Shown: one piece after another, positions 14,668-36,467 of the stretch
How positions within the stretch are numbered: the first letter of the stretch is position 1
How the letters are laid out: each line of letters opens with the position of its first letter
Source of the DNA: Escherichia phage vB_EcoD-Elw
Strand: one strand, 5' to 3'
DNA length: 64,000 bases
Sequence record: OR621298
Program-made: the position numbers and the translations under genes
Notes under the pieces: model-generated
Databases searched by the model: none
What the model saw: only the letters and a program-made list of their open reading frames with translations
What the model was told of the DNA's origin: nothing

Positions 14668-14864
14668 TTACGAACTCCGTTAATTGCCACGATGATGCCT
14701 TCGTACATAAAAGGAAGTAGCCCAGAAGTGTAGAAGATATTTTCCGTTATTCCTAGATGTCGAAAAAGTATATTAAATAATGCTGTTAGAAATACAATCT
14801 GAGGCAGTAATACAAAATACTCAGTTACAATCTTTGGTGCCTGATAAACAAGACGTTTTATCAT
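14664..14864 (-). CDS. small membrane protein
   Basis: 66-aa hydrophobic ORF. Confidence 0.35.
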   Translation of the reverse strand: MIKRLVYQAPKIVTEYFVLLPQIVFLTALFNILFRHLGITENIFYTSGLLPFMYEGIIVAINGVRK

Positions 14865-14963
14865 TGTTTTTAAGTCTCCTTATTACTTTGGCCTGCTCCA
14901 CAATAATAAAAACTGCAAGCACTAATAGTGCTATTAGCCCCGCAGTAATTGGTATTAAATCAA

Positions 14964-15308
14964 TCATGGGAGACGCCATACGTAATTAGCTGTCTGTAGA
15001 ACCTTAGGTGTGTCATCATGATACATTACTACAGACTTTGGTGAATAACTATCAGCTAGCTCTTTACGAATCATCTTACATTCTTCACCAGTATCGATAT
15101 TTTTAACTATCACTTTCATATTAAGAGGTGTTAATACAGAAAGCGGTTTCCAAGAGTCCTCAATTTCAATTCCTACCTTTTTCTCGATTACCATGAGAAC
15201 TTCTAGTGTATCATCTGGAATACTAATATTATTATTCACAAACTGTAATATCTCATGTAAGGTATTTAATTCATTAAAATTAAGCTTCATCTTTAAGAAT
15301 ATCCTCAA
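14964..15308 (-). CDS. hypothetical protein
   Basis: 114-aa ORF. Confidence 0.5.
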   Translation of the reverse strand: MRIFLKMKLNFNELNTLHEILQFVNNNISIPDDTLEVLMVIEKKVGIEIEDSWKPLSVLTPLNMKVIVKNIDTGEECKMIRKELADSYSPKSVVMYHDDTPKVLQTANYVWRLP

Positions 15309-19773: not shown

Positions 19774-20190
19774 TTAATCTACTGCATGTATAAATCTTTT
19801 CCTAACTAGATACATAGTTATTGGGTAAATTGAGTACATAAGTATCGGGGAGAAAAGGGTGAAATACGCTGTAACTCCCCCAGCTAACATCAAAGGTATT
19901 AATGCTAGAGTAAGGGCCATAAGAATCATGCCGAATGAAACAGCCAAAGCTATGGATATAGGATTCTCTAGTTCCATCCATAACCAACAATATTTCGTAT
20001 CTCTATGGCAATTGCATTTACAAACGCCGAATGAACCCATAATTATATACTCTAGTCCGTGAATAACCTTTATTAATAAGCTATTTCGGGTAGTTAATGC
20101 AATGATAGTAAAGACTATCATTAAAACGAATACTACTAGACTTATTTTCCAGATACCTAGCAGCATCATAGTGAATAGTTCTGCAAACAT
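19774..20190 (-). CDS. multi-pass membrane protein
   Basis: 138-aa ORF, 3-4 hydrophobic segments, adjacent to lysis genes. Confidence 0.45.
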   Translation of the reverse strand: MFAELFTMMLLGIWKISLVVFVLMIVFTIIALTTRNSLLIKVIHGLEYIIMGSFGVCKCNCHRDTKYCWLWMELENPISIALAVSFGMILMALTLALIPLMLAGGVTAYFTLFSPILMYSIYPITMYLVRKRFIHAVD

Positions 20191-20253: not shown

Positions 20254-20278
20254 GCCTAAGTTATTAATTAAACTAGTT
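20254..20278 (-). terminator. rho-independent terminator
   Basis: stem GGCGGGA/TCCCGCC followed by UUUUU in minus sense at the endolysin 3' end. Confidence 0.55.
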
Positions 20279-20681
20279 CGACATGACCGCCATCATAGGT
20301 ACCACGTTTTATTTCATCGTGATAGTCTCCCGAAGCATTCCAATCAGCACCAAAACGAAGCTTAATGCCTAGTTCTTTACCAGCTTGTTCAAAAGCCTTT
20401 TTAACTGCCCAAAATGCTTCTAAGTCATTCCAATCAATTTTGCCATTAATGTATGGAGCAAAATCAAGAGCATCCCCAGTAATATGCTTACTTTTACTAG
20501 GATCCTTTAAAAATGAAGTACCATTAGCAATATTCTGGGCACTTTGTGCTACTGTACGAATACCTTGTACGATCGTAAAATCATATGGAGATAATTCTAA
20601 AGCTCTACGAGCTACTTTTTGTAGCTCTGGCTTAACGGTAGCTAATTGTTTTTCGCTATTTTTACCAAATTTAAAACTCAT
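20268..20681 (-). CDS. lys: endolysin, L-alanyl-D-glutamate peptidase type (M15-like)
   Basis: 137-aa ORF; size, C-terminal GDYHDEIKRGTYDGGHVEL and position next to holin-like gene match T5 endolysin. Confidence 0.65.
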   Translation of the reverse strand: MSFKFGKNSEKQLATVKPELQKVARRALELSPYDFTIVQGIRTVAQSAQNIANGTSFLKDPSKSKHITGDALDFAPYINGKIDWNDLEAFWAVKKAFEQAGKELGIKLRFGADWNASGDYHDEIKRGTYDGGHVELV

Positions 20682-21334
20682 ATTGATCTACCTAAAGATC
20701 TCTGTTGTGGGGAACAGAGCTTTGTTAAATACTCGTTAAATTTCTCAGAATCGGCTGCATCTACAGGATTATCTTTCCAAGCAATACCAATATATCCAGC
20801 ATAGATATTGTTTAGATTGAAATACGGACAAGTGTATATGTAATTAAAAGTAACGTTCTTAAACGCAGGTATATTTAACCCCATGTATTTATTTACTTTT
20901 ACACTTAAATCCGATGCGTAGTTAAAGCCTTCCAAGTGACGTCTATATAGCTCAGACGTTTTATTTACCGCTTTATCGGCCAAGTCAGCCCTATCTAATT
21001 GCGCATTGCTTTCCCATGCAATAATGTTAGAATAATCATTAATGGCATCGGGTTTATACTTGACGACAAAAACAGCATCCGCACCCGTTTGAGAAAAGAG
21101 TACCATGCTCTTTTCTCTAGCTACATTAGGAAAGTTATCTATCCTTTGAGTTTGAACATCCTGTAGAACCGCAGACGTGGAGAAAGTCTTTAAGAATGAC
21201 ATCACCTCGCTAGTATTACTAACAAATAAGAAAATAATGACAGCAACTAAGATAGTTAGCAGACGTTTAAGAAGCGATGCTGGATCTTTCGCTTCTTGGA
21301 GCAGTACCGTTAATAATTGTAAGAACTTTTCCAA
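20678..21334 (-). CDS. holin-like membrane protein
   Basis: 218-aa ORF with N-terminal TM, directly upstream of and overlapping the endolysin gene. Confidence 0.5.
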   Translation of the reverse strand: MEKFLQLLTVLLQEAKDPASLLKRLLTILVAVIIFLFVSNTSEVMSFLKTFSTSAVLQDVQTQRIDNFPNVAREKSMVLFSQTGADAVFVVKYKPDAINDYSNIIAWESNAQLDRADLADKAVNKTSELYRRHLEGFNYASDLSVKVNKYMGLNIPAFKNVTFNYIYTCPYFNLNNIYAGYIGIAWKDNPVDAADSEKFNEYLTKLCSPQQRSLGRSI

Positions 21335-21489
21335 TTGTAACCTCCTCTAACCAGTACCATTATACTAATTTTGGAGGAAAATTTCAATGGGTTTTTAAAT
21401 GTTACACTTGGAGCACAAAATTATGTCGTTGTCAAGAAGAATTTTAGATAAAAGAAAAGCCAGGGTACTTAACCCTGGCTTAAAATTAC

Positions 21490-22086
21490 TTACTCTTCGT
21501 TGTGCTCTTCTGATTGAGGTAACTGGGCTTTATTATATTGCTCAGATCGATATTTTGCCAAGATTTCAATACGCTTACGGATTTCCTTGCTATCTAGATA
21601 GATATTTTTGTTGTCTTTTACCATCTCGTCGATTTCATCTATTGAGAAGAACGGATAGTAGACATCTAGCATCATATCTTCTACAAACTTGTTGTAAGAT
21701 TCATAGGCTTTCTTGATTTCTTGACCTTTCTCACAGAACCCGCCAGAGAACGTGTGTCCCATTAGCGTAGCATGTGGATGTACTACCCATCCATGACAGG
21801 ATAGGAAAATTGTGCAGTAAGCAGAAGCACTAGGACCAATCAGGTGTCCTATAACTGTTCCACGGCAATTAGCAATTAAGTTAGATAACTGTGCAGCAGT
21901 ATCAACATAACCACCCGGACCATTAATCATCAGATTAATTTCGTCGTCCTCATTTGCCTGCATAAGTACCATTGATAAATCACGGTATTCATCCGGCGGG
22001 CCTAATTCTTCATCAAAGAAGAAGGTATACTCGTTAGATTGGCGAATGGAGTGAAACAGATTAGTCTTTTCTTTTTTATTAGCCAT
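21490..22086 (-). CDS. ClpP-like serine protease
   Basis: 198-aa ORF; GPGGYVDTAAQLSNLI segment typical of ClpP/S14 family. Confidence 0.55.
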   Translation of the reverse strand: MANKKEKTNLFHSIRQSNEYTFFFDEELGPPDEYRDLSMVLMQANEDDEINLMINGPGGYVDTAAQLSNLIANCRGTVIGHLIGPSASAYCTIFLSCHGWVVHPHATLMGHTFSGGFCEKGQEIKKAYESYNKFVEDMMLDVYYPFFSIDEIDEMVKDNKNIYLDSKEIRKRIEILAKYRSEQYNKAQLPQSEEHNEE

Positions 22087-22098: not shown

Positions 22099-22851
22099 TT
22101 ATCCAACTAGTGGTTCTAGCTCTAAGTCACAGAAGTTATAAACTTCTAGTTTAAGGTTATTGATACCATCGAATTTATTAACTAATTCGTGAGTAATATA
22201 TTTTGCAGGAATACCACTTTCAGATGGATGATCTGATTTAATAGTGAACTTCTGCTCAGCGGGTACTACATTTACTATCAAAGAATCCATATCTAAATGG
22301 TTTGTTTCTCTGAGTAACTCTCCTTCATTGGGGAATCTAACATCTGTTATTACGGCGACATCTGGGTCGTCTTTAGCGATGGATTGCTCCAGAATTATGA
22401 GCCAAATGCGTTCATGCACCAGCTGCCTTCCTAGCTCTGTCCCTACGAGCTGTAACATTTTTCTCGGAGAAATAAATAAACTATAAAGTCCGTCTTCTTT
22501 ATTCTCTGAGATAAGTTGTTGAGGATTAAGATATTTTTCCTCAAAAATAGGCCAAACGTACGAGAAGTCTTCAAACTTATCGATACCGTACTTAAACCAC
22601 ACATCTCTGGCTCGCTCCAGTTGAGATTGTGTGACCGTAAACCATTGGTCAATCTCTTTTCCCCTGCGCTCTCCTAAAAACTCTGGAGTTACACCGAGGA
22701 TTACGGATGCAAGTTCATAAACGGGCTTAGCAAAACTATAACGACGGGATAAACACGTTGGATACGTGTCATTACACCAATCGATAATTAATTTTGCAAC
22801 GGTATCTTTTCCCGAACCAGCTTCACCATGTAAACCGACTAATACTGACAT
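22099..22851 (-). CDS. dnk: deoxynucleoside monophosphate kinase
   Basis: 250-aa ORF; P-loop GEAGSGKDT near N-terminus. Confidence 0.6.
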   Translation of the reverse strand: MSVLVGLHGEAGSGKDTVAKLIIDWCNDTYPTCLSRRYSFAKPVYELASVILGVTPEFLGERRGKEIDQWFTVTQSQLERARDVWFKYGIDKFEDFSYVWPIFEEKYLNPQQLISENKEDGLYSLFISPRKMLQLVGTELGRQLVHERIWLIILEQSIAKDDPDVAVITDVRFPNEGELLRETNHLDMDSLIVNVVPAEQKFTIKSDHPSESGIPAKYITHELVNKFDGINNLKLEVYNFCDLELEPLVG

Positions 22852-23204
22852 TAATCTTTCCTATTGTTAATTGGTGGATAGTAAACTAAGCAACGTTTTT
22901 CTTGTAAATCTTGGCGATAGAAGCAAACCATACCAGTCAGTCGTGAAATGTAAGAGTAAACTGCTTCCTCACATTTTGCTTTTGCATTCCAATCTTTATA
23001 CGGTACAACAACTACTACGCCATCTTCTCCATTTGTAGCTAATTTCTTTTCAAACTTAAAGTCAAAGCTACAAGGTTGAAGTCCTTTAGGCCAGTCTACA
23101 TGAGCTTGCTTTAACTCATGAGATGGCTCTGGTTTTATTTCTTCTGCACAGCCTGTGATTGTGATTGTGGCTGCGAGCAGTACTCCAAGTTTCCAGTTAA
23201 ACAC
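22851..23204 (-). CDS. lipoprotein (possible outer-membrane spanin component)
   Basis: 117-aa ORF; signal peptide with lipobox ITGC; overlaps upstream gene in another frame. Confidence 0.4.
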   Translation of the reverse strand: MFNWKLGVLLAATITITGCAEEIKPEPSHELKQAHVDWPKGLQPCSFDFKFEKKLATNGEDGVVVVVPYKDWNAKAKCEEAVYSYISRLTGMVCFYRQDLQEKRCLVYYPPINNRKD

Positions 23205-23584
23205 GCTAATCTTTCCTCGAACTCTTTATTCTGCTTTTTAGCAATTAATGTTACCAATCCAGGCTTTGCAGCGATAACATCTTGGCGACTAAGAGCTTTA
23301 TCTAGCTGCTTAATCTTTTTGTCTAGATCTGCTTGAGATACATTATTCAGTGTAAAATATTGATTCATGCGTGTCTCACGACGTTCACTCTCAACTTTTA
23401 CATTATTCAAGGAAGTTTCTAGAGAAGAGATCTTTTTAGTAGCTACCGCAAGATCACCCGCTAAAGTCTCCACTTTATCTACTAAGTGATAAGCACCGAA
23501 CCCGATGCCTATTGCTAGACCTGCTCCCAGGATACACCACTTACCGTGCCATATTCCTGAAAGAAGTTTTTGTATCAAATCCAT
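23135..23584 (-). CDS. membrane-anchored coiled-coil protein (possible inner-membrane spanin component)
   Basis: 149-aa ORF; N-terminal TM then long coiled-coil; overlaps downstream lipoprotein gene by ~70 nt. Confidence 0.4.
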   Translation of the reverse strand: MDLIQKLLSGIWHGKWCILGAGLAIGIGFGAYHLVDKVETLAGDLAVATKKISSLETSLNNVKVESERRETRMNQYFTLNNVSQADLDKKIKQLDKALSRQDVIAAKPGLVTLIAKKQNKEFEERLACLTGNLEYCSQPQSQSQAVQKK

Positions 23585-24239
23585 GCGCTGCTAACCTGTC
23601 TTTATCTGATACTTTAATCATATCAGGCTCACCAGTTCCTAGTACACCGAAGATATACTGTTCGAGAACTTGGTGTAAACGGTATAAGTTACTTTCAATT
23701 TCCTGCCACGGAATACCGGACTGATGGAAACGAATGTTAGTCTGAATTACGAAGTTACGAACATCATCGTTATCGTTCTTTTTAATACCTTTCACATATG
23801 CAATTGGTACACGCAGTTCGGATAAGATACGTTCTGCTTTAGGTTTTGCTTCAGCGAGCAGATCACGCATTGTTTCACGAACATCTCCACGACTCTTATC
23901 CATTAAGTAAGAGCGAGCATGTAATCCCATCTCTTCCATTTTATCAAACATAGTGTCGAGATTAAACGTTTTGAAGCTAAATGCTGGATGCCAGCAGTAC
24001 AGCTCGTGTAACCAGTAAACTTCACCTGCAACAAACAGTGGGTTTACAAAGTATTCGAAGTCGCCACGGAAAGATAGTGAACCATCCCGAAATACTTGGC
24101 GAGTATGCACAATGTTCTTTTCTGCATCATCAGTTACCTTAACCAGTAGCTCTTCAGTTTTACGCTCCCAAACACGATCGGGGTCGAACAAACTGTTCTG
24201 CAAATCATACACATCGGCGAACTTAGAAATAATCCTCAT
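23541..24239 (-). CDS. hypothetical protein
   Basis: 232-aa ORF; RBS AGAGGA. Confidence 0.55.
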   Translation of the reverse strand: MRIISKFADVYDLQNSLFDPDRVWERKTEELLVKVTDDAEKNIVHTRQVFRDGSLSFRGDFEYFVNPLFVAGEVYWLHELYCWHPAFSFKTFNLDTMFDKMEEMGLHARSYLMDKSRGDVRETMRDLLAEAKPKAERILSELRVPIAYVKGIKKNDNDDVRNFVIQTNIRFHQSGIPWQEIESNLYRLHQVLEQYIFGVLGTGEPDMIKVSDKDRLAAHGFDTKTSFRNMAR

Positions 24240-24393: not shown

Positions 24394-24774
24394 TTATGTA
24401 ATATTAGTTTCTCTAGCTTTGCGTAGTACCCCTGCATTTCTCCATAACTTAATATCGTCTACTGTTTCTTTATAAGGAGCTATGGTAAAACCTAGTGGGC
24501 CAGCACTAAATAACCCTAAGAATCCTATTGCACGCATATAGAACAAGCATTCTTCGCCTGTCATTTCTTCAACTGCTTTTCTTTGTTTTTCGTTTTCAAA
24601 CTCGTGCTCCTTGTTGTCTATACGAAGGTGTTTAATGAACCATTCAGCAGAATATTCATCTAAGTGTCTAAGTATAGCTACTGCATACCCAGCGCCAATT
24701 AAAAACCAAGTGGTAACAAGAATTAGTATTATAGTCATATAATCTCCAGTTAAGGTCAGCGACCAACTCACCAC
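24394..24774 (-). CDS. membrane protein
   Basis: 126-aa ORF with TM segments. Confidence 0.45.
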   Translation of the reverse strand: MVSWSLTLTGDYMTIILILVTTWFLIGAGYAVAILRHLDEYSAEWFIKHLRIDNKEHEFENEKQRKAVEEMTGEECLFYMRAIGFLGLFSAGPLGFTIAPYKETVDDIKLWRNAGVLRKARETNIT

Positions 24775-24848: not shown

Positions 24849-25133
24849 TTAGGTATTCTGCATTTCAGCTTTAAATTTTTTCATATTACGAGTCTTTCTA
24901 TAAAAGAAAAACACAGATGTTGGGCCTAGAAGAATATCCACAATAAATATCATAGATCTAGCACATCTGAGTAATGTTTTATCATCAAGAGGAGGCAGAT
25001 CTAACGGTCGAGTTTTATGTATAACGTATAATATTACATCTTTATTCTTAGAAATATACAGATCATCAACCAAGCTGTAAATAGCTACTATAGATCCAAT
25101 GACGAACCAAAGAGCAAATGGAGAGATAATCAT
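24849..25133 (-). CDS. membrane protein
   Basis: 94-aa ORF. Confidence 0.45.
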   Translation of the reverse strand: MIISPFALWFVIGSIVAIYSLVDDLYISKNKDVILYVIHKTRPLDLPPLDDKTLLRCARSMIFIVDILLGPTSVFFFYRKTRNMKKFKAEMQNT

Positions 25134-27949: not shown

Positions 27950-28025
27950 TGGTAGTTAGTAGTGGATTTGAACCACTGTAGTCGCTCCGTATGAAGGAGG
28001 TGCATAACCACTCTGCCAACTAACT
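27950..28025 (-). tRNA. tRNA anticodon CAT (Met or Ile-lysidine)
   Basis: Hand fold: 7-bp acceptor AGTTAGT/ACTAACT, T-loop TTCAAAT, anticodon loop TTCATAC, encoded CCA. Confidence 0.55.
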
Positions 28026-28121
28026 GTTATGTTTTACTAGACTAAGTAAGTATTCTTTATACTCTTTAGACCAATTAGCTTTTTTAAACTTTCCTGGACG
28101 CATAGTCTTAATTCCTAGATT

Positions 28122-28198
28122 TGGTACTCCGGGAGGGATTTAAACCCCCGATCTCTCGGTTATCAGCCGAGTGCTTTAGATCGCTAAGCTACCGAAGT
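28122..28198 (-). tRNA. tRNA-Ile (GAT)
   Basis: Hand fold: anticodon arm CTCGG-CTGATAA-CCGAG, acceptor with one G-U, encoded CCA. Confidence 0.6.
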
Positions 28199-28213
28199 AT
28201 TAGAATATTTACA

Positions 28214-28504
28214 TCATACACTGTCTAAGTAAGAAGTATAATGGAATTTAGCTTCTCCAGTCTTATCTACTTCTACCTCAGTTCGTGGTACTTGACGAAC
28301 CACACCATGAATCATCTTATAGCGAATGCCTTTAGCTGGTTCATGATCTTTTGGGAATACTTGTTTAACCGTTACTACTTTATATCCTTCACGCGGTGTT
28401 AACACTACTACTTGATCACCTTCTTTGATTTTCCAAGAAGATGGAAATTCATAGGTATATCTTTGACCACCAGTTTGGAATACTACAGAAAGATAACGTT
28501 TCAT
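28214..28504 (-). CDS. hypothetical protein
   Basis: 96-aa ORF; RBS GAGAGGGAAA. Confidence 0.45.
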   Translation of the reverse strand: MKRYLSVVFQTGGQRYTYEFPSSWKIKEGDQVVVLTPREGYKVVTVKQVFPKDHEPAKGIRYKMIHGVVRQVPRTEVEVDKTGEAKFHYTSYLDSV

Positions 28505-28578
28505 TTGGTTTCCCTCTCATTAATTTATATAGATAGTATAACAAGAAATAAGAGAGAAGGCAAATGAATTTTTAAATT

Positions 28579-28653
28579 TGGTGCTCCCACCAGGAATCGA
28601 ACCCGGTTCAGATGCTTACAAGGCAACTGCATCGCCAGCAATGCTTTAGGAGC
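28579..28653 (-). tRNA. tRNA-Thr (TGT)
   Basis: Hand fold: anticodon loop CTTGTAA, T-loop TTCGATT, CCA encoded. Confidence 0.55.
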
Positions 28654-28820
28654 GATGATCCCGTTATTTCAACGGGATTTCTTTTTCAATAACAGGAGAC
28701 TTATCAGTCATAACTGTCATTGCCATTTGTTGTAGAAATTCAAAGGTGAAGGCTACACGTTCTTCACCAATCTCTACTTCTACACGTTTCTTTTGTTTAT
28801 CGATCTTGACTTTTAGGTTG

Positions 28821-29042
28821 TCAGCCATCTTCGGGTTCTCGTTGCTGCGCTACTTCTAGCCAGTCTGGTAGAAGAAACTTTGTACGAAATTCTTCGTAAG
28901 TTTCTTTGGGATAAAAGCTAAAACCTCCTTTCTCATCATTCAGGATAACAGAACCGTCAGTTTGTTCGTATGCTCGGTATGTTTCCCCAATAACAATAAC
29001 TCGTTTATCAGTACTTTTATTACGAAACTCAAAAACGTGCAT
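28821..29042 (-). CDS. hypothetical protein
   Basis: 73-aa ORF. Confidence 0.4.
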   Translation of the reverse strand: MHVFEFRNKSTDKRVIVIGETYRAYEQTDGSVILNDEKGGFSFYPKETYEEFRTKFLLPDWLEVAQQREPEDG

Positions 29043-29058
29043 AATGTTCCCTTAAAGT

Positions 29059-29134
29059 TGGAGCGGCTAGAGGGAATCGAACCCTACTCAGCGAGGCTTG
29101 GAAGGCCTGCGACACAACCCGTGTGCTTAACCGC
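29059..29134 (-). tRNA. tRNA-Gly (TCC)
   Basis: Hand fold: anticodon loop CTTCCAA, T-loop TTCGATT, acceptor GCGGTTA/TAGCCGC, CCA encoded. Confidence 0.6.
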
Positions 29135-29142
29135 TTATTGTT

Positions 29143-29220
29143 TGGCAGGGGATATTGGATTTGAACCAATGATCTCGACTTCAAAGGCCGAAGCTTTAGA
29201 CCAGGCTAAGCTAATCCCCA
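29143..29220 (-). tRNA. tRNA-Gln (TTG)
   Basis: Hand fold: anticodon arm TCGGC-CTTTGAA-GTCGA; position 1:72 unpaired (U-U); CCA encoded. Confidence 0.55.
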
Positions 29221-29226
29221 ACTGTT

Positions 29227-29302
29227 TGGCAGAAGGTAGTAGGTTCGAACCACTGATCGGGGTTTCAGAGACCCCAGCCTTAACCGACTTGGCTAACCTT
29301 CT
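29227..29302 (-). tRNA. tRNA-Gln (CTG)
   Basis: Hand fold: perfect acceptor AGAAGGT/ACCTTCT, anticodon arm GGGGT-CTCTGAA-ACCCC, CCA encoded. Confidence 0.6.
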
Positions 29303-29486
29303 TCTTAATACTTTTTGGATCTTCTAAACGTTTGCCTTCATGATCTACTCGAATAACTCCGCACCCTTCGCAAACCACAACTACACCATAACCTTCTTTG
29401 ACCTCAGCTTCTGTAATCAAACCAGAAAGATCACCAGTATCTCTGCCCCACATATCAATGGAGCATTGTTTGCAGAAATCAGCCAT
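29280..29486 (-). CDS. small zinc-ribbon-like protein
   Basis: 68-aa ORF with CKQC and CEGCG pairs; 3' end overlaps tRNA-Gln by ~23 nt. Confidence 0.4.
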   Translation of the reverse strand: MADFCKQCSIDMWGRDTGDLSGLITEAEVKEGYGVVVVCEGCGVIRVDHEGKRLEDPKSIKKKVSQVG

Positions 29487-29511
29487 ATTTTATTTCCTAT
29501 TTAAGTTAATT

Positions 29512-29588
29512 TGGGGTGGCTAGTGGAATTCGAATCCACATAGGCCTGATTCACAATCAGGATCATTAACCAATTATGATATAGCCAC
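29512..29588 (-). tRNA. tRNA-His (GTG)
   Basis: Hand fold: acceptor GTGGCTA/TAGCCAC, anticodon arm CCTGA-TTGTGAA-TCAGG, T-loop TTCGAAT, CCA encoded. Confidence 0.65.
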
Positions 29589-30088
29589 AATTGAAAACTC
29601 GCAGGGTTAGCGAAACCTTCCTCAATTAGCATGTTCTAGAATACTAATCAAGTTATCTCCTATTGCACGCAGCTCAAGACGAGTACGAATTTTCAATTGT
29701 GGTGGCTCTCAGAAACTCTTCTACTCTAGCCTTAGCAGCTTACTCCCGAACGCATGTCGGGGAAGTCTTACTAAGAGCTTCGAATAGCACCGTTACACTT
29801 TGAGCCATAGATGTATCAAGAAGCAGAAGGACTTGAACCTTCACGAGATAGACCATTTATCTCAGCCGCTTTATGAGGTATGTTGCAGGGAGTGGATGTT
29901 CCCTATAAACCTTTTAGGCAGCCCCGTCTACCGATTCCAGCATACTTCAAGAATTTTTATAAACCAGCAGAAGCCTCATTTAAAGCATCAACAATAGCTT
30001 CACGTTGGGTCATTCCATACCCAGTGGAATCTAGGTGTGGCAAATAAGCCATCCATCCCTTATCTGTTTCATGAAGGCATGCTTTAAA

Positions 30089-30107
30089 TTTTTTTTTTTT
30101 TTTTTTT
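30089..30107. repeat. 19-nt poly(T) homopolymer (poly(A) on the coding minus strand)
   Basis: 19 consecutive T read directly; lies inside a short minus-strand ORF that starts at 30143 behind RBS AAGGAA. Confidence 0.9.
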
Positions 30108-30163
30108 ACCGTCCTTCATTGTTACAGTAACTGTTTTGCTCATAATGATTCCTTATAGTTAAT

Positions 30164-30253
30164 TGGAGGAAGGTAATGGAGTCGAACCATCACCGTATCA
30201 CTACAGCGGGCTAGTTTTCAAGACTAGTTGCGTACCACTACGCCCTACCTTCC
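30164..30253 (-). tRNA. tRNA-Ser (TGA), class II
   Basis: 90 nt; acceptor GGAAGGT/ACCTTCC, anticodon arm CTAGT-CTTGAAA-ACTAG, long variable arm, CCA encoded. Confidence 0.6.
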
Positions 30254-30260
30254 ATTTGTT

Positions 30261-30351
30261 TGGCGGAAGAGGAGAGATTTGAACTCTCAAGCCGTTTTAC
30301 CAGTCAGCCACTTTCCAAGCGGTTTTCGTCGCCAATTCGATTTGCTCTTCC
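30261..30351 (-). tRNA. tRNA-Ser (GGA), class II
   Basis: 91 nt; acceptor GGAAGAG/CTCTTCC, T-arm GAGAG-TTCAAAT-CTCTC, long variable arm; anticodon assignment tentative. Confidence 0.45.
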
Positions 30352-30384
30352 AATAATAAGATGATGCCTCTATCACACCAGGCA

Positions 30385-30460
30385 GTTACGCCTCGCTGGG
30401 ATTCGAACCCATTAAAACAGCTCAACCGAGATAGTAGATTTAATTTACTCTGACCATCAA
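30385..30460 (-). other. tRNA-like element with canonical T-arm but no foldable acceptor stem
   Basis: GGGTTCGAATCCC T-arm motif present; no 7-bp acceptor pairing or CCA found by hand. Confidence 0.3.
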
Positions 30461-30463
30461 ATT

Positions 30464-30540
30464 TGGTGCGTGACAAGGGATTCGAACCCTCAAAACCCGA
30501 CTTCTAAGGACGGTATGTATGCCAATTCCATCAATCACGC
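30464..30540 (-). tRNA. tRNA with anticodon TAG (Leu-type anticodon) in a short 77-nt class-I-like body
   Basis: Acceptor GCGTGAT/GTCACGC (one G-U), T-arm GAGGG-TTCGAAT-CCCTT, anticodon loop CTTAGAA, discriminator A, CCA encoded. Confidence 0.45.
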
Positions 30541-30545
30541 GTATT

Positions 30546-30620
30546 TGGTGGACAAAGAGGGACTCGAACCCTCCCTACCAGATTGCAAATCTGGTGTGCT
30601 CCCGCTGACACTATTCGCCC
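30546..30620 (-). tRNA. tRNA-Ala (TGC)
   Basis: Anticodon arm CCAGA-TTTGCAA-TCTGG, T-arm GAGGG-TTCGAGT-CCCTC, acceptor with two G-U pairs, CCA encoded. Confidence 0.6.
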
Positions 30621-30997
30621 AAATTTATTAATCCAGCATGTACTTCTCTATGGCAGTTAGAGCATAATAGTACGCACTTTTTAAGTTCTGCTATTACTAC
30701 TTCTCTGTTTCTACGAGAAGTTCTAAACCTTGCAATGGAGTATTCCTTTTCTTCTGGATTAGTATGGTGGAAATCTAAGGCTTGTTTACACCTATTATAT
30801 CCACAAATACTACATTCTAATACAGGAAATACTTCTTTAATTAATTCTTCATGTCCAGCTACTCGTTCAGCTTTTTCACATGCTTTACATGTTGGCTTCC
30901 ACTTCTTTGTGCCATTAGGAGTAAATCCATTCGAATAAAAATATTCGGTTGTTAACGGATATTCATTCCCACAGGCTCTACATGTTTTTGTACACAC
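30611..30997 (-). CDS. HNH homing endonuclease
   Basis: 128-aa ORF; N-terminal Cys pairs and C-terminal HNH signature (DFHHTNP...CSNCH); 3' end overlaps tRNA-Ala by 10 nt. Confidence 0.7.
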   Translation of the reverse strand: MCTKTCRACGNEYPLTTEYFYSNGFTPNGTKKWKPTCKACEKAERVAGHEELIKEVFPVLECSICGYNRCKQALDFHHTNPEEKEYSIARFRTSRRNREVVIAELKKCVLLCSNCHREVHAGLINLGE

Positions 30998-31357
30998 TGC
31001 GTTAACCCCTGTAAGTTTACTAAGGCTATTAGCTCGGCGTAACTACAGCACCTTCGCTTCGAGCGGAAGGAACTGCGTCATCTCGCAAACCCGATACACT
31101 ATTCAGTTGCCGCTGAATCTAGTGGACTAATCTAGAACTTCTCCCGAATTGTAGGGATCGTGCTTTTTGGCAGCCAGTCCTAGGTCGAGCTAATACCTTA
31201 GTGAACTAAATTGATGGATACCAGACTAATTTTGCTACGACGTTTATCCTGAGGATCTCTTTTTCGGTAGCTCTGCTAGTGTAGACGTCATACACCTGGT
31301 ATCTAGGCAGCTATTTTCGCATCAATTTATATAAATATTATAACAAGAAATTAAGCA

Positions 31358-31720
31358 TTAAGCAAGTACATTTTTAGCGATTTCCTGTAGTTCCTTTACA
31401 TCACGAACGTAAAGGTAATCAGAGCTTCCAGAGTGCATACTTTGCATAACCACACCTTCATCTGGTGCATTATCCTTCAAGGTAATTCCTAGCCAGAACT
31501 CGGCAAAACTAGGTGTTATCTCACCTTGACTTGCCTTGAATACATCATATTCTGTAAGTTCTTGACCAGTAGATAATCCCAAATAGACAGAACTAAGATC
31601 AATCTCTTTATGAGACTCATAAAATTCCGATAGATCTTTTTCCATATCCCAGCCATGCTGCAATGCGAACTCCATTGTCACATGACCGAAATAACCTTGA
31701 ATCTTGTTTGATAATTGCAT
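31358..31720 (-). CDS. hypothetical protein
   Basis: Track ORF 31358..31726 starts at TTG; trimmed to ATG with RBS AAGGA. Confidence 0.45.
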   Translation of the reverse strand: MQLSNKIQGYFGHVTMEFALQHGWDMEKDLSEFYESHKEIDLSSVYLGLSTGQELTEYDVFKASQGEITPSFAEFWLGITLKDNAPDEGVVMQSMHSGSSDYLYVRDVKELQEIAKNVLA

Positions 31721-31745
31721 TTGCAATTCCTTATTTTGAGTTAAT

Positions 31746-31819
31746 TGGTACTCGGTGATAGAATCGAACTATCACAACCGCCGTGTAAAGACGGGGTTCT
31801 CCCATTAAACTAACCGAGC
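31746..31819 (-). tRNA. tRNA-Val (TAC)
   Basis: 74 nt; anticodon arm CCGTC-TTTACAC-GGCGG, T-arm GATAG-TTCGATT-CTATC, CCA encoded. Confidence 0.6.
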
Positions 31820-31823
31820 AATT

Positions 31824-31901
31824 TGGTAGATCGCCTGGGATTCGAACCCAGAACTGACGGATTAAAGGTCCGCTACTCTTATCCAGTTGAGCTAGCGATC
31901 T
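31824..31901 (-). tRNA. tRNA-Lys (TTT)
   Basis: Perfect acceptor AGATCGC/GCGATCT, T-arm CTGGG-TTCGAAT-CCCAG, anticodon loop CCTTTAA (C at position 33 is unusual). Confidence 0.5.
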
Positions 31902-31902
31902 A

Positions 31903-32070
31903 TTAGTAACCATTATATACCTCTTTAATAGAGTGAACTTTCAAGTAAGGGTGATTAGTATTAAACTCTGCCATTACTTCATCCCAATTTTTACCATAAT
32001 GTGCAAGTAAGGATCTTGAGGTATTATTACCTAAACGTTTGTCACTTACTACTAATCGAAATACTTTCAT
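31903..32070 (-). CDS. small protein (55 aa)
   Basis: Not in ORF track; ATG with RBS AGAGGA; translated by hand; fills the gap between tRNA genes. Confidence 0.35.
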   Translation of the reverse strand: MKVFRLVVSDKRLGNNTSRSLLAHYGKNWDEVMAEFNTNHPYLKVHSIKEVYNGY

Positions 32071-32090
32071 TTCGAAATCCTCTATTAAAG

Positions 32091-32167
32091 TGGAAGCGGG
32101 TGCAGGAATCGAACCTACCTCTTTCTAGCTTATGAGACTAGCGATCTCTACCAGAGATCTAACCCGC
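32091..32167 (-). tRNA. tRNA anticodon CAT (Met or Ile-lysidine)
   Basis: Anticodon arm CTAGT-CTCATAA-GCTAG at canonical position; acceptor and T-stem contain mismatches. Confidence 0.45.
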
Positions 32168-32174
32168 AATTGTT

Positions 32175-32252
32175 TGGTCTCCGTGGGAGGATTTGAACCC
32201 CCGACCCTATCGCCCCAAACGAAACGCTCTGGCCAAACTGAGCTACACGGAG
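32175..32252 (-). tRNA. tRNA-Pro (TGG)
   Basis: Acceptor CTCCGTG/CACGGAG, D-stem GCTC/GAGC, anticodon loop TTTGGGG, T-loop TTCAAAT, CCA encoded. Confidence 0.55.
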
Positions 32253-32256
32253 AATA

Positions 32257-32415
32257 TTATTTCTTCAACCACAACAAAGATAAGCCCAGCATACTAAAGC
32301 CGCTAACTAATCCGATACATTTTTCTTCTATAGTAAAAGTATCTAGATTAAATGCTGTTATAGCTATTGGCATACACCATAATGTCATAAAAACTTGAGC
32401 TATCTTGTGTTTCAT
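32257..32415 (-). CDS. small hydrophobic protein (52 aa)
   Basis: Not in ORF track; ATG with RBS GAGAAGGAAAG; sits immediately upstream of tRNA-Pro. Confidence 0.35.
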   Translation of the reverse strand: MKHKIAQVFMTLWCMPIAITAFNLDTFTIEEKCIGLVSGFSMLGLSLLWLKK

Positions 32416-32725
32416 TTTGCTTTCCTTCTCTTCACTTTATAAAATATATTATACAGATAATATAGCAGAATAGCAAATGAATTTTTAATAAATTTACTTA
32501 TTGTGTAGGCCACCTGGAGGCTACCAACCCCACGGCTGACAAAGAAGTTTGCGAGACCTCTCTTAAATGCCAGAATAGACCCGCCGATCTATCGGAACCT
32601 ACATAATAAGTAAACTTTCGTTTACTTACGCCCCGTTAGAGGGACTTTAGCGACTAGAACCGGCCGGAAACTTCATCGCCTTGTTTATTCAGAAGTCCGT
32701 TCTCTAGGGAGCAGAAATCTAAATT

Positions 32726-32800
32726 TGGTGGAGTTTGGGAGACTACGTGTTACTCCCTCTGTCCGAAGTAGGATAGTGCTTAACCGTTTAGCTGAACCCC
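32726..32800 (-). other. tRNA-like element (acceptor- and D-arm-like stems, CCA end, non-canonical T and anticodon arms)
   Basis: Plus-strand AAATTTGG junction as at true tRNA 3' ends; acceptor GGGGTTC/AAACTCC pairs 6 of 7; 5-bp GGGAG/CTCCC stem with 11-nt loop replaces the T-arm. Confidence 0.3.
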
Positions 32801-32979
32801 TTTAAATATTTATACGTTTTATCTAACAACTCTTGTTTAGAGATTATACCATCACGATATTCAGTAATAAAATTATCTATGTTGGAGTCCTTTGATACAA
32901 CGTTATCAGATAGCTCTGTGAATTTATTTGCTAAAAGATCTAATTCTTTGTAATTCACAAAACCTCCAGAATATGCCAT
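32788..32979 (-). CDS. hypothetical protein
   Basis: 63-aa ORF. Confidence 0.4.
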   Translation of the reverse strand: MAYSGGFVNYKELDLLANKFTELSDNVVSKDSNIDNFITEYRDGIISKQELLDKTYKYLKGFS

Positions 32980-33219
32980 TCTAGACAGGACTCGAACCTG
33001 CTATCACTTGTGCGGACTTACGAGAACCATTCTTTCACTCGAATCGAACGAGCTTCTGCCCTAGCCAAGCTGGTTTCCCCATCAACCACGCTAGAATGTT
33101 TGATTGTTTTCAGTGCAAGAGTCCGAGTCTTGGACACGACCGCTTCGCAAGTACATAGGCAGCTTATCATGAGTCAGCACTTCCGAATTGCTAGCTCCGT
33201 GTTCTGCACTGAGATTTTG

Positions 33220-33567
33220 TTAATTTAATAGTAAAGTACGATCTACTTCACCATTAATTGTTCGGCATTCCTCTGGAATTGCTGGTGTAGTCTTATATTC
33301 CCACCATTCAGAACCATCATATTCACCACGTTCTAACCAAGTTCCATCAGTAAACCATACGTTACCATAAAGCAATTGTCCACCGAAACCAGAATCATAT
33401 TTAAAGTCTAGATTATTTAGAAAATCTTCAATATCTTTTTCTGTATAACCTACGGGTAATACCCAAACTTCTTTGTCTCCATAATAACCGAATTCTATCT
33501 TAATACACTTAACTTCAGAATTAGTATTCTTTAGGGCAAGTAACAATTCTTCTTTAGCATTAATCAT
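33220..33567 (-). CDS. hypothetical protein
   Basis: 115-aa ORF. Confidence 0.45.
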   Translation of the reverse strand: MINAKEELLLALKNTNSEVKCIKIEFGYYGDKEVWVLPVGYTEKDIEDFLNNLDFKYDSGFGGQLLYGNVWFTDGTWLERGEYDGSEWWEYKTTPAIPEECRTINGEVDRTLLLN

Positions 33568-33593
33568 AGCATATTTCTCATACTAAATTAATT

Positions 33594-33669
33594 TGGTACA
33601 CCCACTAGGACTTGAACCTAGAACCCTCCGCTTAAGAGGCGGTAGCTCTAACCATTGAGCTATGGGTGT
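33594..33669 (-). tRNA. tRNA-Lys (CTT)
   Basis: 76 nt with canonical numbering: acceptor ACACCCA/TGGGTGT, D-stem GCTC/GAGC, anticodon loop CTCTTAA, T-arm CTAGG-TTCAAGT-CCTAG, CCA. Confidence 0.6.
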
Positions 33670-33675
33670 ATTAAA

Positions 33676-33828
33676 TTACTTTTCCAGTTCATCAGCTATG
33701 GCTTTGATTTTTTCAAAGTTTACATCACTAATAATGATACCTTCCAGTGACAGAGATATTCTAGCATTTTTCATAGCAGATTCTTTTATCTGCTCTATTT
33801 CTTCTGGAGTAAACTCCCTACGTTCCAT
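33676..33828 (-). CDS. small acidic protein (50 aa)
   Basis: Not in ORF track; ATG with RBS AAGGTAGG; between two tRNA genes. Confidence 0.3.
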   Translation of the reverse strand: MERREFTPEEIEQIKESAMKNARISLSLEGIIISDVNFEKIKAIADELEK

Positions 33829-33845
33829 AGCTAACCTACCTTATT

Positions 33846-33922
33846 TGGCGCGACCGATGGGATTTGAACCCACATTCCCTCCCGTGACAGGAGAGTACCA
33901 TTACCAAGCCAGCCCCGGTCGC
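33846..33922 (-). tRNA. tRNA-Asp (GTC)
   Basis: Acceptor GCGACCG/CGGTCGC, anticodon arm CTCTC-CTGTCAC-GGGAG, T-loop TTCAAAT, CCA encoded. Confidence 0.6.
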
Positions 33923-33931
33923 ATAATTCAT

Positions 33932-34117
33932 TTACTCAGCTTTGAGCTTTTCAATAGCTGCATTAAGTTCTTTAAGAAACTCTTTTCGTACATTAAGACG
34001 ATTGAGACTTACTAGTATATCGTGTTTAAGTTCTTCGATGTATTTCTTTTCAACTTCAATATTGTTGATAGTGCTATCACGATGAACTTCTAGCTGCGCA
34101 ATTACATTCTTGGACAT
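33932..34117 (-). CDS. hypothetical coiled-coil protein
   Basis: 61-aa ORF. Confidence 0.4.
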   Translation of the reverse strand: MSKNVIAQLEVHRDSTINNIEVEKKYIEELKHDILVSLNRLNVRKEFLKELNAAIEKLKAE

Positions 34118-34144
34118 GCTTGTTTCCTCAGTTATTAATGAAAA

Positions 34145-34215
34145 TGGTATCTGTGGCTGAATTCGATGTCAGCAATGATAGCTGGTTGGCTACCGGTTTA
34201 CTTAACTCTACACAG
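34145..34215 (-). other. tRNA-like element with 8-nt T-loop and imperfect acceptor
   Basis: 3' ...GATACCA end and GCTGA/TCAGC stem around a CATCGAAT loop; no standard anticodon arm found. Confidence 0.25.
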
Positions 34216-34219
34216 AATT

Positions 34220-34297
34220 TGGCGGTTCCTGCTGGATTCGAACCAGCAAACCTCAACTTAACAAGATGCCGCTCTAACCAATTAGAGCTAAGGAACC
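34220..34297 (-). tRNA. tRNA-Asn (GTT)
   Basis: Perfect acceptor GGTTCCT/AGGAACC, D-stem GCTC/GAGC, T-arm GCTGG-TTCGAAT-CCAGC, anticodon loop TTGTTAA on a weak 3-bp stem. Confidence 0.5.
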
Positions 34298-34792
34298 ATA
34301 TAAGTCAGAACTAGAGTTAATACGTTCTAGATATTTACTAAGATCCCTAGAATTTATACTAAACCACTCATGTTCTTTTAAATCTTTGAAATACTGGTGA
34401 ATTAGTTTTTCACCTTTTCGTTTGTCAAACCAAAACGACCAATGCTCTAATTTATAATCCCTATATGGGGAATAGGTCTGATATTGAGCTAATCTCTCTT
34501 TTGGATTTTGACTCATACCTATTTTATACTGATTTTTCCATGCAGGATTACTAATACAGTATACAAAACCTTCAGAAATAGGAAGTTTATTTTCCTGCTT
34601 AAACTTTATAAAGGAAAGTGCGGCAAGTTTTCTCGAATACATAGTATTCGTATTCTTTTTGGTATTACCATTAGTTCCTGAAAGATTTATATATTCTTCC
34701 ATAAATCTTTGGATTAGTTCTGCGGTTATACAGAAAGGCCCATTAGTAACAACGCCTTTCTTTACCAAACTATCAAAAACTTTTGTATGCAC
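34274..34792 (-). CDS. T5orf172-type GIY-YIG-like domain protein (putative homing endonuclease)
   Basis: 172-aa ORF (GTG start in track); GFVYCISNPAWKNQYKIGMSQNPKERL resembles the GIY-YIG-like T5orf172 domain; 3' end overlaps tRNA-Asn. Confidence 0.6.
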   Translation of the reverse strand: MHTKVFDSLVKKGVVTNGPFCITAELIQRFMEEYINLSGTNGNTKKNTNTMYSRKLAALSFIKFKQENKLPISEGFVYCISNPAWKNQYKIGMSQNPKERLAQYQTYSPYRDYKLEHWSFWFDKRKGEKLIHQYFKDLKEHEWFSINSRDLSKYLERINSSSDLYGSLALIG

Positions 34793-34813
34793 TACTTCTT
34801 TCCTTTAGTAAAT

Positions 34814-34889
34814 TGGACGACCGCATGAGATTTGAACTCACATAAAAAGGATTTGCAATCCTTCGCCTAAGCCCTTCAGCCAACGGTCG
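34814..34889 (-). tRNA. tRNA-Cys (GCA)
   Basis: Anticodon arm AAGGA-TTGCAAA-TCCTT, T-loop TTCAAAT, acceptor CGACCGT/GCGGTCG, CCA encoded. Confidence 0.6.
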
Positions 34890-34958
34890 GTTTATCTTGT
34901 TCTGTCATGTTGCTTCTCCAGTTCAATTTATGTAATTATTATACAGAACTTTTGGAAA

Positions 34959-35231: not shown

Positions 35232-35248
35232 CAGCAGCTCCTTCAATT

Positions 35249-35323: not shown

Positions 35324-35329
35324 AAATTT

Positions 35330-35406: not shown

Positions 35407-35414
35407 GCAGAAAT

Positions 35415-35491: not shown

Positions 35492-35498
35492 TTAAATT

Positions 35499-36452: not shown

Positions 36453-36467
36453 CTTATTTCCTTAGTT

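What the first reader, a model, noticed from the sequence alone, without database searches (positions are those of the whole stretch)
22851..23584. Possible overlapped two-component spanin pair separated from the holin-endolysin genes
A TM-anchored coiled-coil protein (23135-23584) overlaps, in a different frame, a lipoprotein gene with lipobox ITGC (22851-23204). This embedded or overlapped arrangement is typical of Rz/Rz1-type spanins, but the pair lies ~2.5 kb from the holin-like and endolysin genes (20268-21334), with the ClpP-like and dNMP kinase genes between. The lipoprotein is larger and more Cys-rich than typical o-spanins, so the assignment is tentative.
Basis: inference. Interest (0 to 1): 0.4.

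Follow-up and report, generated by a model that had tools for sequence, protein, structure and literature searches.

The report
Known T5-family overlapped spanin gene pair
These two overlapping genes are the already catalogued outer-membrane-breaking "spanin" pair of T5-like phages, distant relatives of the tested phage T4 spanins, so the finding is correct but ordinary.

Summary
On the minus strand, 23135-23584 encodes a 149-aa N-terminally membrane-anchored helical protein. 22851-23204 encodes a 117-aa lipoprotein (lipobox ITGC, Ala at +2). The genes overlap by 70 nt in different frames.

The window is a T5-like phage (Tequintavirus), 97.9% identical here to vB_EcoS_FFH_1. In that phage these two genes are listed in the published SpaninDB (Kongari et al. 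2018) as an overlapped two-component spanin with a 70-bp overlap, at coordinates offset by 34. RefSeq annotates the same layout as two "Rz-like spanins".

Both proteins match PHROG spanin families 739 and 812. The tested T4 spanins PseT.3 and PseT.2 match the same families. The two Cys that T4 PseT.2 needs for lysis align with C94 and C105 here.

The gene order spanins, dNMP kinase, Clp-like protease, terminator, promoter, holin, endolysin is conserved across Demerecviridae. Some relatives carry a homing endonuclease between the two spanin genes, and both genes stay intact.

The pair is not a sequence homologue of lambda Rz/Rz1. I found no direct experiment on a T5-family spanin. Verdict: already known, low interest.

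The parts
23135..23584 (-). i-spanin gene (149 aa): short cytoplasmic N-terminus, one TMD, helical periplasmic domain
   Evidence: ORF. phrog_739 'Rz-like spanin' at 3e-36. Same CDS annotated as Rz-like spanin in phiLLS and FGS017. SpaninDB entry for FFH1 i-spanin, 23168-23618, equals these coordinates plus 34.
22851..23204 (-). o-spanin gene (117 aa precursor, 99 aa mature lipoprotein), GTG start
   Evidence: ORF. phrog_812 'Rz-like spanin' at 5e-30. Annotated as Rz-like spanin or o-spanin in relatives. SpaninDB entry for FFH1 o-spanin is 22884-23238.
23135..23204 (-). 70-nt out-of-frame overlap: encodes the i-spanin C-terminal tail (aa 127-149) and the o-spanin signal peptide plus first mature residues
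   Evidence: The same 70 bp overlap is reported for T5 and FFH1. Mean pairwise divergence is 0.083, against 0.12 and 0.107 in the flanking single-frame parts.
23480..23536 (-). i-spanin transmembrane segment (aa 17-35, CILGAGLAIGIGFGAYHLV)
   Evidence: Hydropathy maximum 1.75. Conserved in T5, Sugarlandvirus and T4-type relatives.
23360..23479 (-). i-spanin membrane-proximal coiled-coil region (aa 36-75)
   Evidence: Heptad a/d hydrophobic periodicity of 0.85 against a shuffle mean of 0.52, reached by 0 of 1000 shuffles. SpaninDB Pepcoil gives one coiled coil at aa 33-76 in FFH1. AF2 predicts a helix.
23255..23269 (-). conserved AKPGL motif (aa 106-110) at the break between the two periplasmic helices
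   Evidence: K107, P108 and L110 are invariant from T5-like to T4-like i-spanins. The motif falls in the low-pLDDT break at residues 101-110 in AF2.
23177..23203 (-). i-spanin C128-x7-C136 motif, inside the overlap
   Evidence: Conserved in Tequintavirus, Sugarlandvirus and Priunavirus, absent from T4 and Pm5461. Retained when a homing endonuclease breaks the overlap in IrisVonRoten.
23148..23204 (-). o-spanin lipoprotein signal peptide and lipobox ITGC (Cys19 is the lipidated residue; +2 is Ala)
   Evidence: G18 and C19 are invariant in the alignment. A PROSITE lipid-attachment note is attached to the SSP1 homologue.
22890..22925 (-). o-spanin C94...C105 pair (MVCFYRQDLQEKRC), equivalent to T4 PseT.2 C87/C98
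   Evidence: Invariant C94, Y96, E102 and C105. Both Cys are required for lysis in T4 PseT.2 (PMC6139136).
23214..23218 (-). GAGGA Shine-Dalgarno sequence 9 nt upstream of the o-spanin GTG, inside the i-spanin coding sequence
   Evidence: Sequence read. Conserved in phiLLS, FGS017 and T5.
22099..22851 (-). dNMP kinase gene; its ATG overlaps the o-spanin TAA by one base (TAATG)
21490..22086 (-). Clp-like protease gene, last gene of the spanin-containing unit
   Evidence: phrog_1827 at 4e-89.
21457..21481 (-). intrinsic-terminator-like hairpin (10-bp stem, 6 G-C pairs, T tail) between the Clp-like gene and the holin gene
   Evidence: A terminator is annotated at the same place in T5 and PR1.
21359..21387 (-). 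promoter-like site TTGAAA-17-TATAAT upstream of the holin gene
   Evidence: 11 of 12 matches. It corresponds to T5 'putative early promoter T5P12'.
20678..21334 (-). holin gene (T4 T-holin family)
   Evidence: PF11031 at 8e-114. phrog_860.
20268..20681 (-). endolysin gene (T5-type peptidase)
   Evidence: phrog_465 at 2e-54. The FZ41 homologue is annotated L-alanyl-D-glutamate peptidase.

Best explanation
The locus is the two-component spanin of a T5-like phage. It performs the third and last step of Gram-negative lysis.

The upstream gene makes the i-spanin. This is a type II inner-membrane protein with a short cytoplasmic N-terminus and a TMD at aa 17-35. Its periplasmic domain is built as helix, AKPGL break, helix, followed by a C-x7-C tail.

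The downstream gene starts 70 nt before the i-spanin stop, in another frame. It makes the o-spanin, a lipoprotein cleaved and lipidated at Cys19. Because +2 is Ala, it should be sorted to the inner leaflet of the outer membrane.

The two proteins are inferred to bind through their C-terminal regions and form disulfide-stabilised complexes that span the periplasm. These complexes stay caged by the peptidoglycan until the T-type holin triggers and the endolysin destroys the wall. They then collapse and fuse the inner and outer membranes, releasing the progeny.

Shown here: the ORFs, the targeting signals, the conservation and the homology to the tested T4 PseT.3/PseT.2 pair. Inferred: localisation, complex formation, disulfide pattern and lytic function in this phage.
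For: - Anatomy.
- Family HMMs: phrog_739 at 3e-36 and phrog_812 at 5e-30, both labelled Rz-like spanin. T4 PseT.3 and PseT.2 match the same two families at 1e-37 and 5e-42.
- Direct comparison with T4: BLASTP gives 29% identity and E=2e-7 for each partner. A database-wide tblastn hit reaches the T4-like Proteus phage Pm5461 o-spanin at 3e-5.
- Conserved residues: lipobox G-C, W38, P39, C94, Y96, E102 and C105 in the o-spanin; K107, P108 and L110 in the i-spanin.
- Published catalogue: SpaninDB lists a T5 family that includes vB_EcoS_FFH1, overlapped by 70 bp at coordinates equal to the window's plus 34.
- Public annotation: RefSeq and GenBank relatives are annotated as spanins.
- Function of homologues: T4 pseT.3/pseT.2 complement lambda RzamRz1am, and both PseT.2 Cys are needed (PMC6139136).
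- Conserved context: spanins, dnk, Clp, terminator, holin, endolysin in three Demerecviridae genera.
- Natural separation: in NR01 and IrisVonRoten a homing endonuclease separates the two genes. In IrisVonRoten both products were translated. The o-spanin keeps a new N-terminus with the same lipobox, and the i-spanin keeps its C-x7-C.
Against: - A full-text search found no experimental study of a T5-family spanin. Function therefore rests on roughly 29% identical T4 homologues and on topology signals.
- No Pfam, NCBIfam or PDB match exists for either protein.
- No dedicated signal peptidase II predictor was available. The lipobox call rests on a pattern and on a PROSITE note attached to a homologue.
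- The genes appear to lie in a transcription unit separate from holin-endolysin, among nucleotide-metabolism genes. This is unusual for lambda-like cassettes but is also true of T4.
Confidence: 0.95

Rival explanations
1. The lipoprotein is not a lysis protein. It would be a receptor-blocking or superinfection-exclusion lipoprotein of the T5 Llp or Cor kind, and its overlap with a membrane protein gene would be incidental.
For: T5-like phages are known to encode a small lipoprotein, Llp, that blocks FhuA (cited in PMC4342426). The gene lies in an early-type transcription unit away from holin-endolysin. The mature protein is large and predicted to be partly folded into beta strands and a helix.
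Against: The protein is homologous over its whole length to T4 PseT.2, including the two Cys required for lysis. It is always paired with a PseT.3 homologue immediately upstream, in both Demerecviridae and T4-like phages. SpaninDB and RefSeq classify it as an o-spanin. Shivani lacks llp yet keeps this pair, so the two are different genes. I did not compare it directly with the Llp sequence.
Confidence: 0.02
2. The overlapping 117-aa frame is a chance ORF, or it is wrongly started at a GTG. Only the 149-aa membrane protein would be real.
For: The start codon is GTG. Many GenBank records leave the ORF unannotated or call it a hypothetical protein.
Against: The ORF is intact in 550 phage records, down to about 40% protein identity. 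It persists as a free-standing gene where a homing endonuclease separates the pair. It has a GAGGA Shine-Dalgarno sequence at 9 nt. Relatives use ATG at the same codon, and the difference is a synonymous GCA/GCG change in the i-spanin frame. Only 2 of 1134 candidate ORFs in the window carry such a signal. Kongari et al. report that gene callers systematically miss overlapped o-spanins.
Confidence: 0.01
3. The pair is a true spanin homologue but is dispensable or non-functional in this phage. Outer-membrane disruption would be achieved by another protein, for example a disruptin-like peptide or one of the uncharacterised membrane proteins nearby.
For: There is no experimental evidence for T5-family spanins. 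Several small membrane proteins of unknown function flank the lysis genes.
Against: Both ORFs, the lipobox, the TMD and all the Cys are conserved across hundreds of genomes and three genera. That conservation indicates purifying selection on function.
Confidence: 0.02

Closest known systems
T5 spanin family of SpaninDB (T5 ORF041/ORF040 = T5.045/T5.044; vB_EcoS_FFH1, EPS7, SPC35, AKFV33, DT57C, Stitch; Kongari et al. 2018, PMC6139136)
   Same: These are the same genes. The i-spanin is 96.6% identical to FFH1 and 90% to T5. The o-spanin is 91% identical to T5. The lengths match (149 and 117 aa), as do the 70-bp overlap and the neighbours.
   Different: Only strain-level substitutions. The o-spanin start is GTG here, as in phiLLS and FGS017, but ATG in T5. 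The cytoplasmic N-terminus of the i-spanin varies between strains.
Phage T4 PseT.3 / PseT.2 (separated two-component spanin, shown to complement lambda RzamRz1am)
   Same: Both partners are homologous: same PHROGs, 29% identity, E=2e-7. The gene order is i then o. The o-spanin is large and partly structured. The C-x10-C pair near its C-terminus is conserved, as is the AKPGL break in the i-spanin. Both pairs lie away from their holin and endolysin, and both accompany a T-type holin.
   Different: The T4 genes overlap by only 4 nt and are classed as separated, whereas these overlap by 70 nt. T4 PseT.3 has no periplasmic Cys, whereas this i-spanin has a C-terminal C-x7-C. This o-spanin has two extra Cys (C45, C78) and a 10-aa longer tail.
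Lambda Rz / Rz1 (embedded two-component spanin)
   Same: The predicted topology and division of labour are the same: a type II inner-membrane protein with coiled-coil helices plus an outer-membrane lipoprotein, with periplasmic Cys available for disulfide-linked complexes. T4 homologues of this pair can replace Rz/Rz1.
   Different: No sequence similarity was detected, since no Pfam family matched at E<=1. Rz1 is wholly embedded in Rz, is 40 aa when mature, proline-rich and unstructured. Here the overlap is partial and the lipoprotein is 99 aa with predicted strands and a helix. Lambda's spanin genes also sit directly after S and R (my own knowledge).
Phage T1 gp11 unimolecular spanin
   Same: It serves the same lysis step and also starts with a lipoprotein signal.
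   Different: gp11 is one polypeptide with a C-terminal TMD. The lipoprotein here has no second hydrophobic segment, and the membrane anchor is on a separate protein.

Membership tests
Two-component spanin (functional class, criteria of Summer 2007 / Kongari 2018) | i-spanin: a single N-terminal TMD with the bulk of the protein periplasmic and largely helical | tested here: met
   One hydrophobic segment at aa 17-35. Heptad periodicity at aa 36-75, reached by 0 of 1000 shuffles. AF2 predicts helices.
Two-component spanin (functional class, criteria of Summer 2007 / Kongari 2018) | o-spanin: lipoprotein signal with a lipobox Cys and no Asp at +2 (outer-membrane sorting) | tested here: met
   MFNWKLGVLLAATITITGC followed by A. 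G18 and C19 are invariant. This is pattern-based; no LipoP or SignalP was available.
Two-component spanin (functional class, criteria of Summer 2007 / Kongari 2018) | o-spanin gene embedded in, overlapping or immediately following the i-spanin gene on the same strand | tested here: met
   70-nt overlap, same strand, different frame.
Two-component spanin (functional class, criteria of Summer 2007 / Kongari 2018) | At least one periplasmic Cys available for intermolecular disulfides (507 of 528 systems) | tested here: met
   i-spanin C128 and C136. o-spanin C45, C78, C94 and C105.
Two-component spanin (functional class, criteria of Summer 2007 / Kongari 2018) | Required for outer-membrane disruption: spherical-cell arrest when mutated, and complementation of lambda RzamRz1am | not testable with these tools
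   Shown only for the T4 homologues (PMC6139136). No T5-family experiment was found.
T5 spanin family (SpaninDB: at least 40% identity over at least 40% of length) | Sequence identity of both partners to family members | tested here: met
   90% (i) and 91% (o) identity to T5. 96.6% to the FFH1 i-spanin. The FFH1 coordinates in SpaninDB equal the window's plus 34.
T4 PseT.3/PseT.2 family (PHROG 739 / 812) | Full-length match of both partners to the family HMMs that T4 PseT.3 and PseT.2 also match | tested here: met
   Window proteins: 3e-36 and 5e-30. T4 proteins: 1e-37 and 5e-42. Pairwise BLASTP gives 2e-7 for each partner.
T4 PseT.3/PseT.2 family (PHROG 739 / 812) | The two C-terminal o-spanin Cys that are essential in PseT.2 (C87, C98) | tested here: met
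   They align with C94 and C105 and are invariant in 6 of 6 sequences.
Lambda Rz / Rz1 sequence families (Pfam Phage_lysis and Rz1; names from memory) | A match to the Pfam models | tested here: not met
   Neither protein has a Pfam hit that reaches its curated cutoff, and no Rz or Rz1 family appears in the list of hits at E<=1. This pair is a functional analogue, not a sequence member.
Unimolecular spanin (T1 gp11 type) | An N-terminal lipobox and a C-terminal TMD in one polypeptide | tested here: not met
   The lipoprotein has its only hydrophobic segment at the N-terminus.

The most novel reading that the evidence does not exclude
The Demerecviridae branch of the PseT.3/PseT.2 spanin family may use a disulfide architecture that differs from both tested models. 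It has a C-x7-C motif at the i-spanin C-terminus, which is absent from T4-type i-spanins. In Tequintavirus and Sugarlandvirus the o-spanin also carries an extra Cys pair, C45 and C78. In the six sequences aligned, these two are either both present or both absent. This would combine lambda-like i-spanin covalent dimers with T4-like o-spanin C-terminal links and an intramolecular staple. Nobody appears to have tested this.
Probability: 0.3. Interest if true: 0.2.

Novelty: already known. Interest (0 to 1): 0.07.

Why it matters
It matters little beyond correct annotation. Many GenBank records of T5-like phages still label one or both genes "hypothetical protein", "putative terminase" or "i-spanin" for the o-spanin. 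A firm assignment therefore helps curators.

The link to T4 PseT.3/PseT.2, together with the T-type holin, shows that T5-like and T4-like phages share two of their three lysis functions. The holin and the spanins are homologous, but the endolysins differ. This gives a tested model (T4) from which to design experiments on T5 spanins.

Tried and rejected
- Pfam, NCBIfam and PDB sequence searches gave no significant match for either protein. These families have no curated model or solved structure.
- Single-sequence AF2 of the o-spanin gave a low-confidence model (pLDDT 54.1). I use it only as a weak hint of a strand-helix-hairpin fold with C94 and C105 on neighbouring strands. I did not run a fold search on it.
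- I ran no further search on building a deeper alignment, because the identity of the locus was already settled.
- A full-text search for experiments on T5 spanins found only the 2018 survey and a phiKZ paper that mentions the T5 holin.
- Summer et al. 2007 has no PMC id in the reference list that was read, so I did not consult it.
- Three literature calls failed because a search term was too short.
- The promoter scan gave no more sites than shuffles (21 against 22.7). Only the site that coincides with T5's annotated P12 is cited, and only as weak evidence.
- The second lipobox-pattern hit, at 14834-14989 (+), was rejected as antisense to minus-strand genes and internal to a 69-aa ORF.
- Divergence in the overlap is only modestly lower than in the flanks in 7 genomes. 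It is consistent with dual coding but is not a strong test by itself.

Full report
**What is in the sequence**

On the minus strand, ORF 23135..23584 (ATG, 149 aa) and ORF 22851..23204 (GTG, 117 aa) overlap by 70 nt in different frames.

- The 149-aa protein has a single hydrophobic segment at aa 17-35.
  - Heptad periodicity over aa 36-75 was reached by none of 1000 shuffles.
  - A moderately confident single-sequence AF2 model shows three helices, at 2-80, 84-101 and 108-129.
- The 117-aa protein begins MFNWKLGVLLAATITITGC.
  - This is a lipoprotein signal with lipobox ITGC.
  - Ala follows the Cys, which by the established +2 rule means sorting to the outer membrane.
- A GAGGA lies 9 nt upstream of the GTG. 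The o-spanin stop overlaps the dNMP kinase start (TAATG).
- A strict lipoprotein-signal pattern matched only two loci among 1134 candidate ORFs in six frames. The other is an antisense ORF that I reject.

**What the window is**

The region is 97.9% identical to Escherichia phage vB_EcoS_FFH_1, and 446 phage records match it, mostly from Salmonella and Escherichia phages. The matching records whose taxonomy I read are Demerecviridae. RefSeq records such as phiLLS annotate exactly this layout. Two overlapping "Rz-like spanin" CDSs of 450 and 354 nt are followed by dNMP kinase, an ATP-dependent protease, holin and endolysin. In T5 itself the genes are ORF041 and ORF040.

**Published status**

Kongari et al. 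2018 (PMC6139136) define a T5 family for both i- and o-spanins in their SpaninDB and name vB_EcoS_FFH1 among its members. They state that the T5 spanins overlap by 70 bp.

Their supplementary table lists FFH1 as "ovl", minus strand, with the i-spanin at 23168-23618, the o-spanin at 22884-23238 and an overlap of 70. These are the window's coordinates plus 34. The i-spanin is given as 149 aa with one predicted coiled coil at 33-76. The o-spanin is given as 117 aa with a 99-residue periplasmic part. The finding is therefore already catalogued.

**Deeper relationship**

- Family models.
  - Both proteins match PHROG spanin families: phrog_739 at 3e-36 and phrog_812 at 5e-30.
  - T4 PseT.3 and PseT.2 match the same two families.
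- Direct comparison with T4-type phages.
  - BLASTP gives 29% identity and E=2e-7 for each partner.
  - tblastn also reaches the T4-like Proteus phage Pm5461 o-spanin at 3e-5.
- Alignment across Tequintavirus, Sugarlandvirus, Priunavirus, Pm5461 and T4.
  - In the o-spanin the lipobox G-C, W38, P39, C94, Y96, E102 and C105 are invariant.
  - In the i-spanin K107, P108 and L110 (the AKPGL break) are invariant.
- Experimental support from T4. Its pair complements lambda RzamRz1am. Both PseT.2 cysteines, C87 and C98, are essential, and they align with C94 and C105 here.

A roughly 100-aa, partly structured, Cys-containing o-spanin is the norm for this family. Four periplasmic Cys is the documented upper bound, seen in 35 of 526 systems. 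The holin is also of the T4 T type (PF11031, 8e-114). T5-like and T4-like phages thus share a holin and spanins but not an endolysin.

**Family-specific features**

The i-spanin C128-x7-C136 motif occurs in all three Demerecviridae genera examined but not in T4 or Pm5461. The o-spanin Cys C45 and C78 occur together in Tequintavirus and Sugarlandvirus, and both are absent from PR1, Pm5461 and T4. This suggests an extra intramolecular disulfide and i-spanin covalent dimers. That is an inference and has not been tested.

**Evidence that both frames are real**

- Both ORFs are intact in seven overlapped relatives. The overlap is slightly less divergent (0.083) than the flanks (0.12 and 0.107).
- The o-spanin start is GTG here and in phiLLS and FGS017, but ATG in T5, GSW6, DT57C and SSP1.
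  - Between the window and T5, whose upstream sequence I read, the difference is a synonymous GCG/GCA Ala127 codon in the i-spanin frame.
  - The four ATG strains keep the same i-spanin residues there.
- In NR01 and IrisVonRoten a homing-endonuclease gene of about 700 bp sits between the two genes, as published for Shivani and phiR201.
  - The IrisVonRoten o-spanin has a new N-terminus (MRKIKLGILLAAAITITGC) with the same lipobox.
  - Its i-spanin keeps the C-x7-C but has a different tail.

**Context**

The order spanins, dNMP kinase, Clp-like protease, holin, endolysin is conserved in T5, Klebsiella phage FZ41 and Providencia phage PR1. A strong terminator-like hairpin (21481..21457) follows the Clp-like gene. 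An 11-of-12 promoter-like site (21387..21359) lies just upstream of the holin gene. Both match T5's annotated terminator and "putative early promoter T5P12".

The spanins therefore appear to be transcribed separately from holin-endolysin, about 1.5 kb upstream. In T4 the spanins are also unlinked from t and e.

**Mechanism**

The steps below are inferred by homology and topology and are not shown here.

1. The i-spanin inserts N-in into the inner membrane.
2. The o-spanin is lipidated at Cys19 and carried to the outer membrane.
3. The C-terminal regions bind and form disulfide-stabilised complexes that span the periplasm.
4. After holin triggering and peptidoglycan degradation by the endolysin, the complexes fuse the two membranes.

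**Limits**

- I found no experiment on a T5-family spanin.
- There are no Pfam, NCBIfam or PDB relatives.
- The o-spanin AF2 model is of low confidence.
- The lipobox call is pattern-based.

**Verdict**

The feature is real, well conserved and already described, so novelty is nil and interest is low.

Noticed in passing
window 23202-23204 (minus strand): The o-spanin start codon is GTG here, as in phiLLS and FGS017, but ATG in T5, GSW6, DT57C and SSP1. Against T5 the change is the third base of i-spanin Ala127 (GCG versus GCA). It is silent in one frame and alters the initiation codon in the other.
   Followed up: yes
L010 (Salmonella phage NR01) and L012 1907-2605 (Escherichia phage IrisVonRoten): A homing-endonuclease gene of about 700 bp is inserted exactly between the i- and o-spanin genes, turning the overlapped pair into a separated one. 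The IrisVonRoten ORF matches endonuclease and HNH PHROGs, whereas the 2018 paper calls the Shivani insert GIY-YIG.
   Followed up: partly
window 19774-20190 (-): A 138-aa protein with several hydrophobic, possibly membrane-spanning segments is encoded directly downstream of the endolysin gene (T5 ORF035). It matches phrog_5944 of unknown function and no Pfam family. A role in lysis control is conceivable but untested.
   Followed up: partly
window 24394-24774 (-) and 24849-25133 (-): Two small predicted membrane proteins of unknown function (phrog_5468 and phrog_5265) lie upstream of the spanin-containing gene block.
   Followed up: no
window 23541-24239 (-): A 232-aa protein of unknown function (phrog_4243) has a stop codon 44 nt inside the i-spanin gene. 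[quoted passage not shown]
   Followed up: partly
window 22662-22669, inside the dNMP kinase gene: T5's 'major single-stranded nick 2' is annotated on the sequence GCGCAGGG, and that sequence is conserved at the equivalent place in the window.
   Followed up: partly
window 27950-41114 (-): ARAGORN finds 24 tRNA genes, all on the minus strand. Rfam adds two more tRNA-model matches that ARAGORN did not call, at 36763-36837 (40.3 bits) and 41043-41114 (35.5 bits).
   Followed up: no
L005 4001-4330 (Klebsiella phage vB_KpnS_FZ41): In this GenBank record the o-spanin is annotated as a 120-nt fragment (4211-4330). The full 109-aa lipoprotein ORF with lipobox ASGC starts at 4001 and overlaps the i-spanin by 88 nt. 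Neighbouring products such as 'DNA polymerase III subunit epsilon' and '6-phosphofructokinase' look like mis-annotations.
   Followed up: partly
window 20678-21334 (-): The holin belongs to the T4 T-holin family (PF11031, 8e-114), while the endolysin is a T5-type peptidase and not a T4-type lysozyme. Together with the PseT.3/PseT.2-like spanins, this makes two of the three lysis functions shared with T4-like phages.
   Followed up: partly
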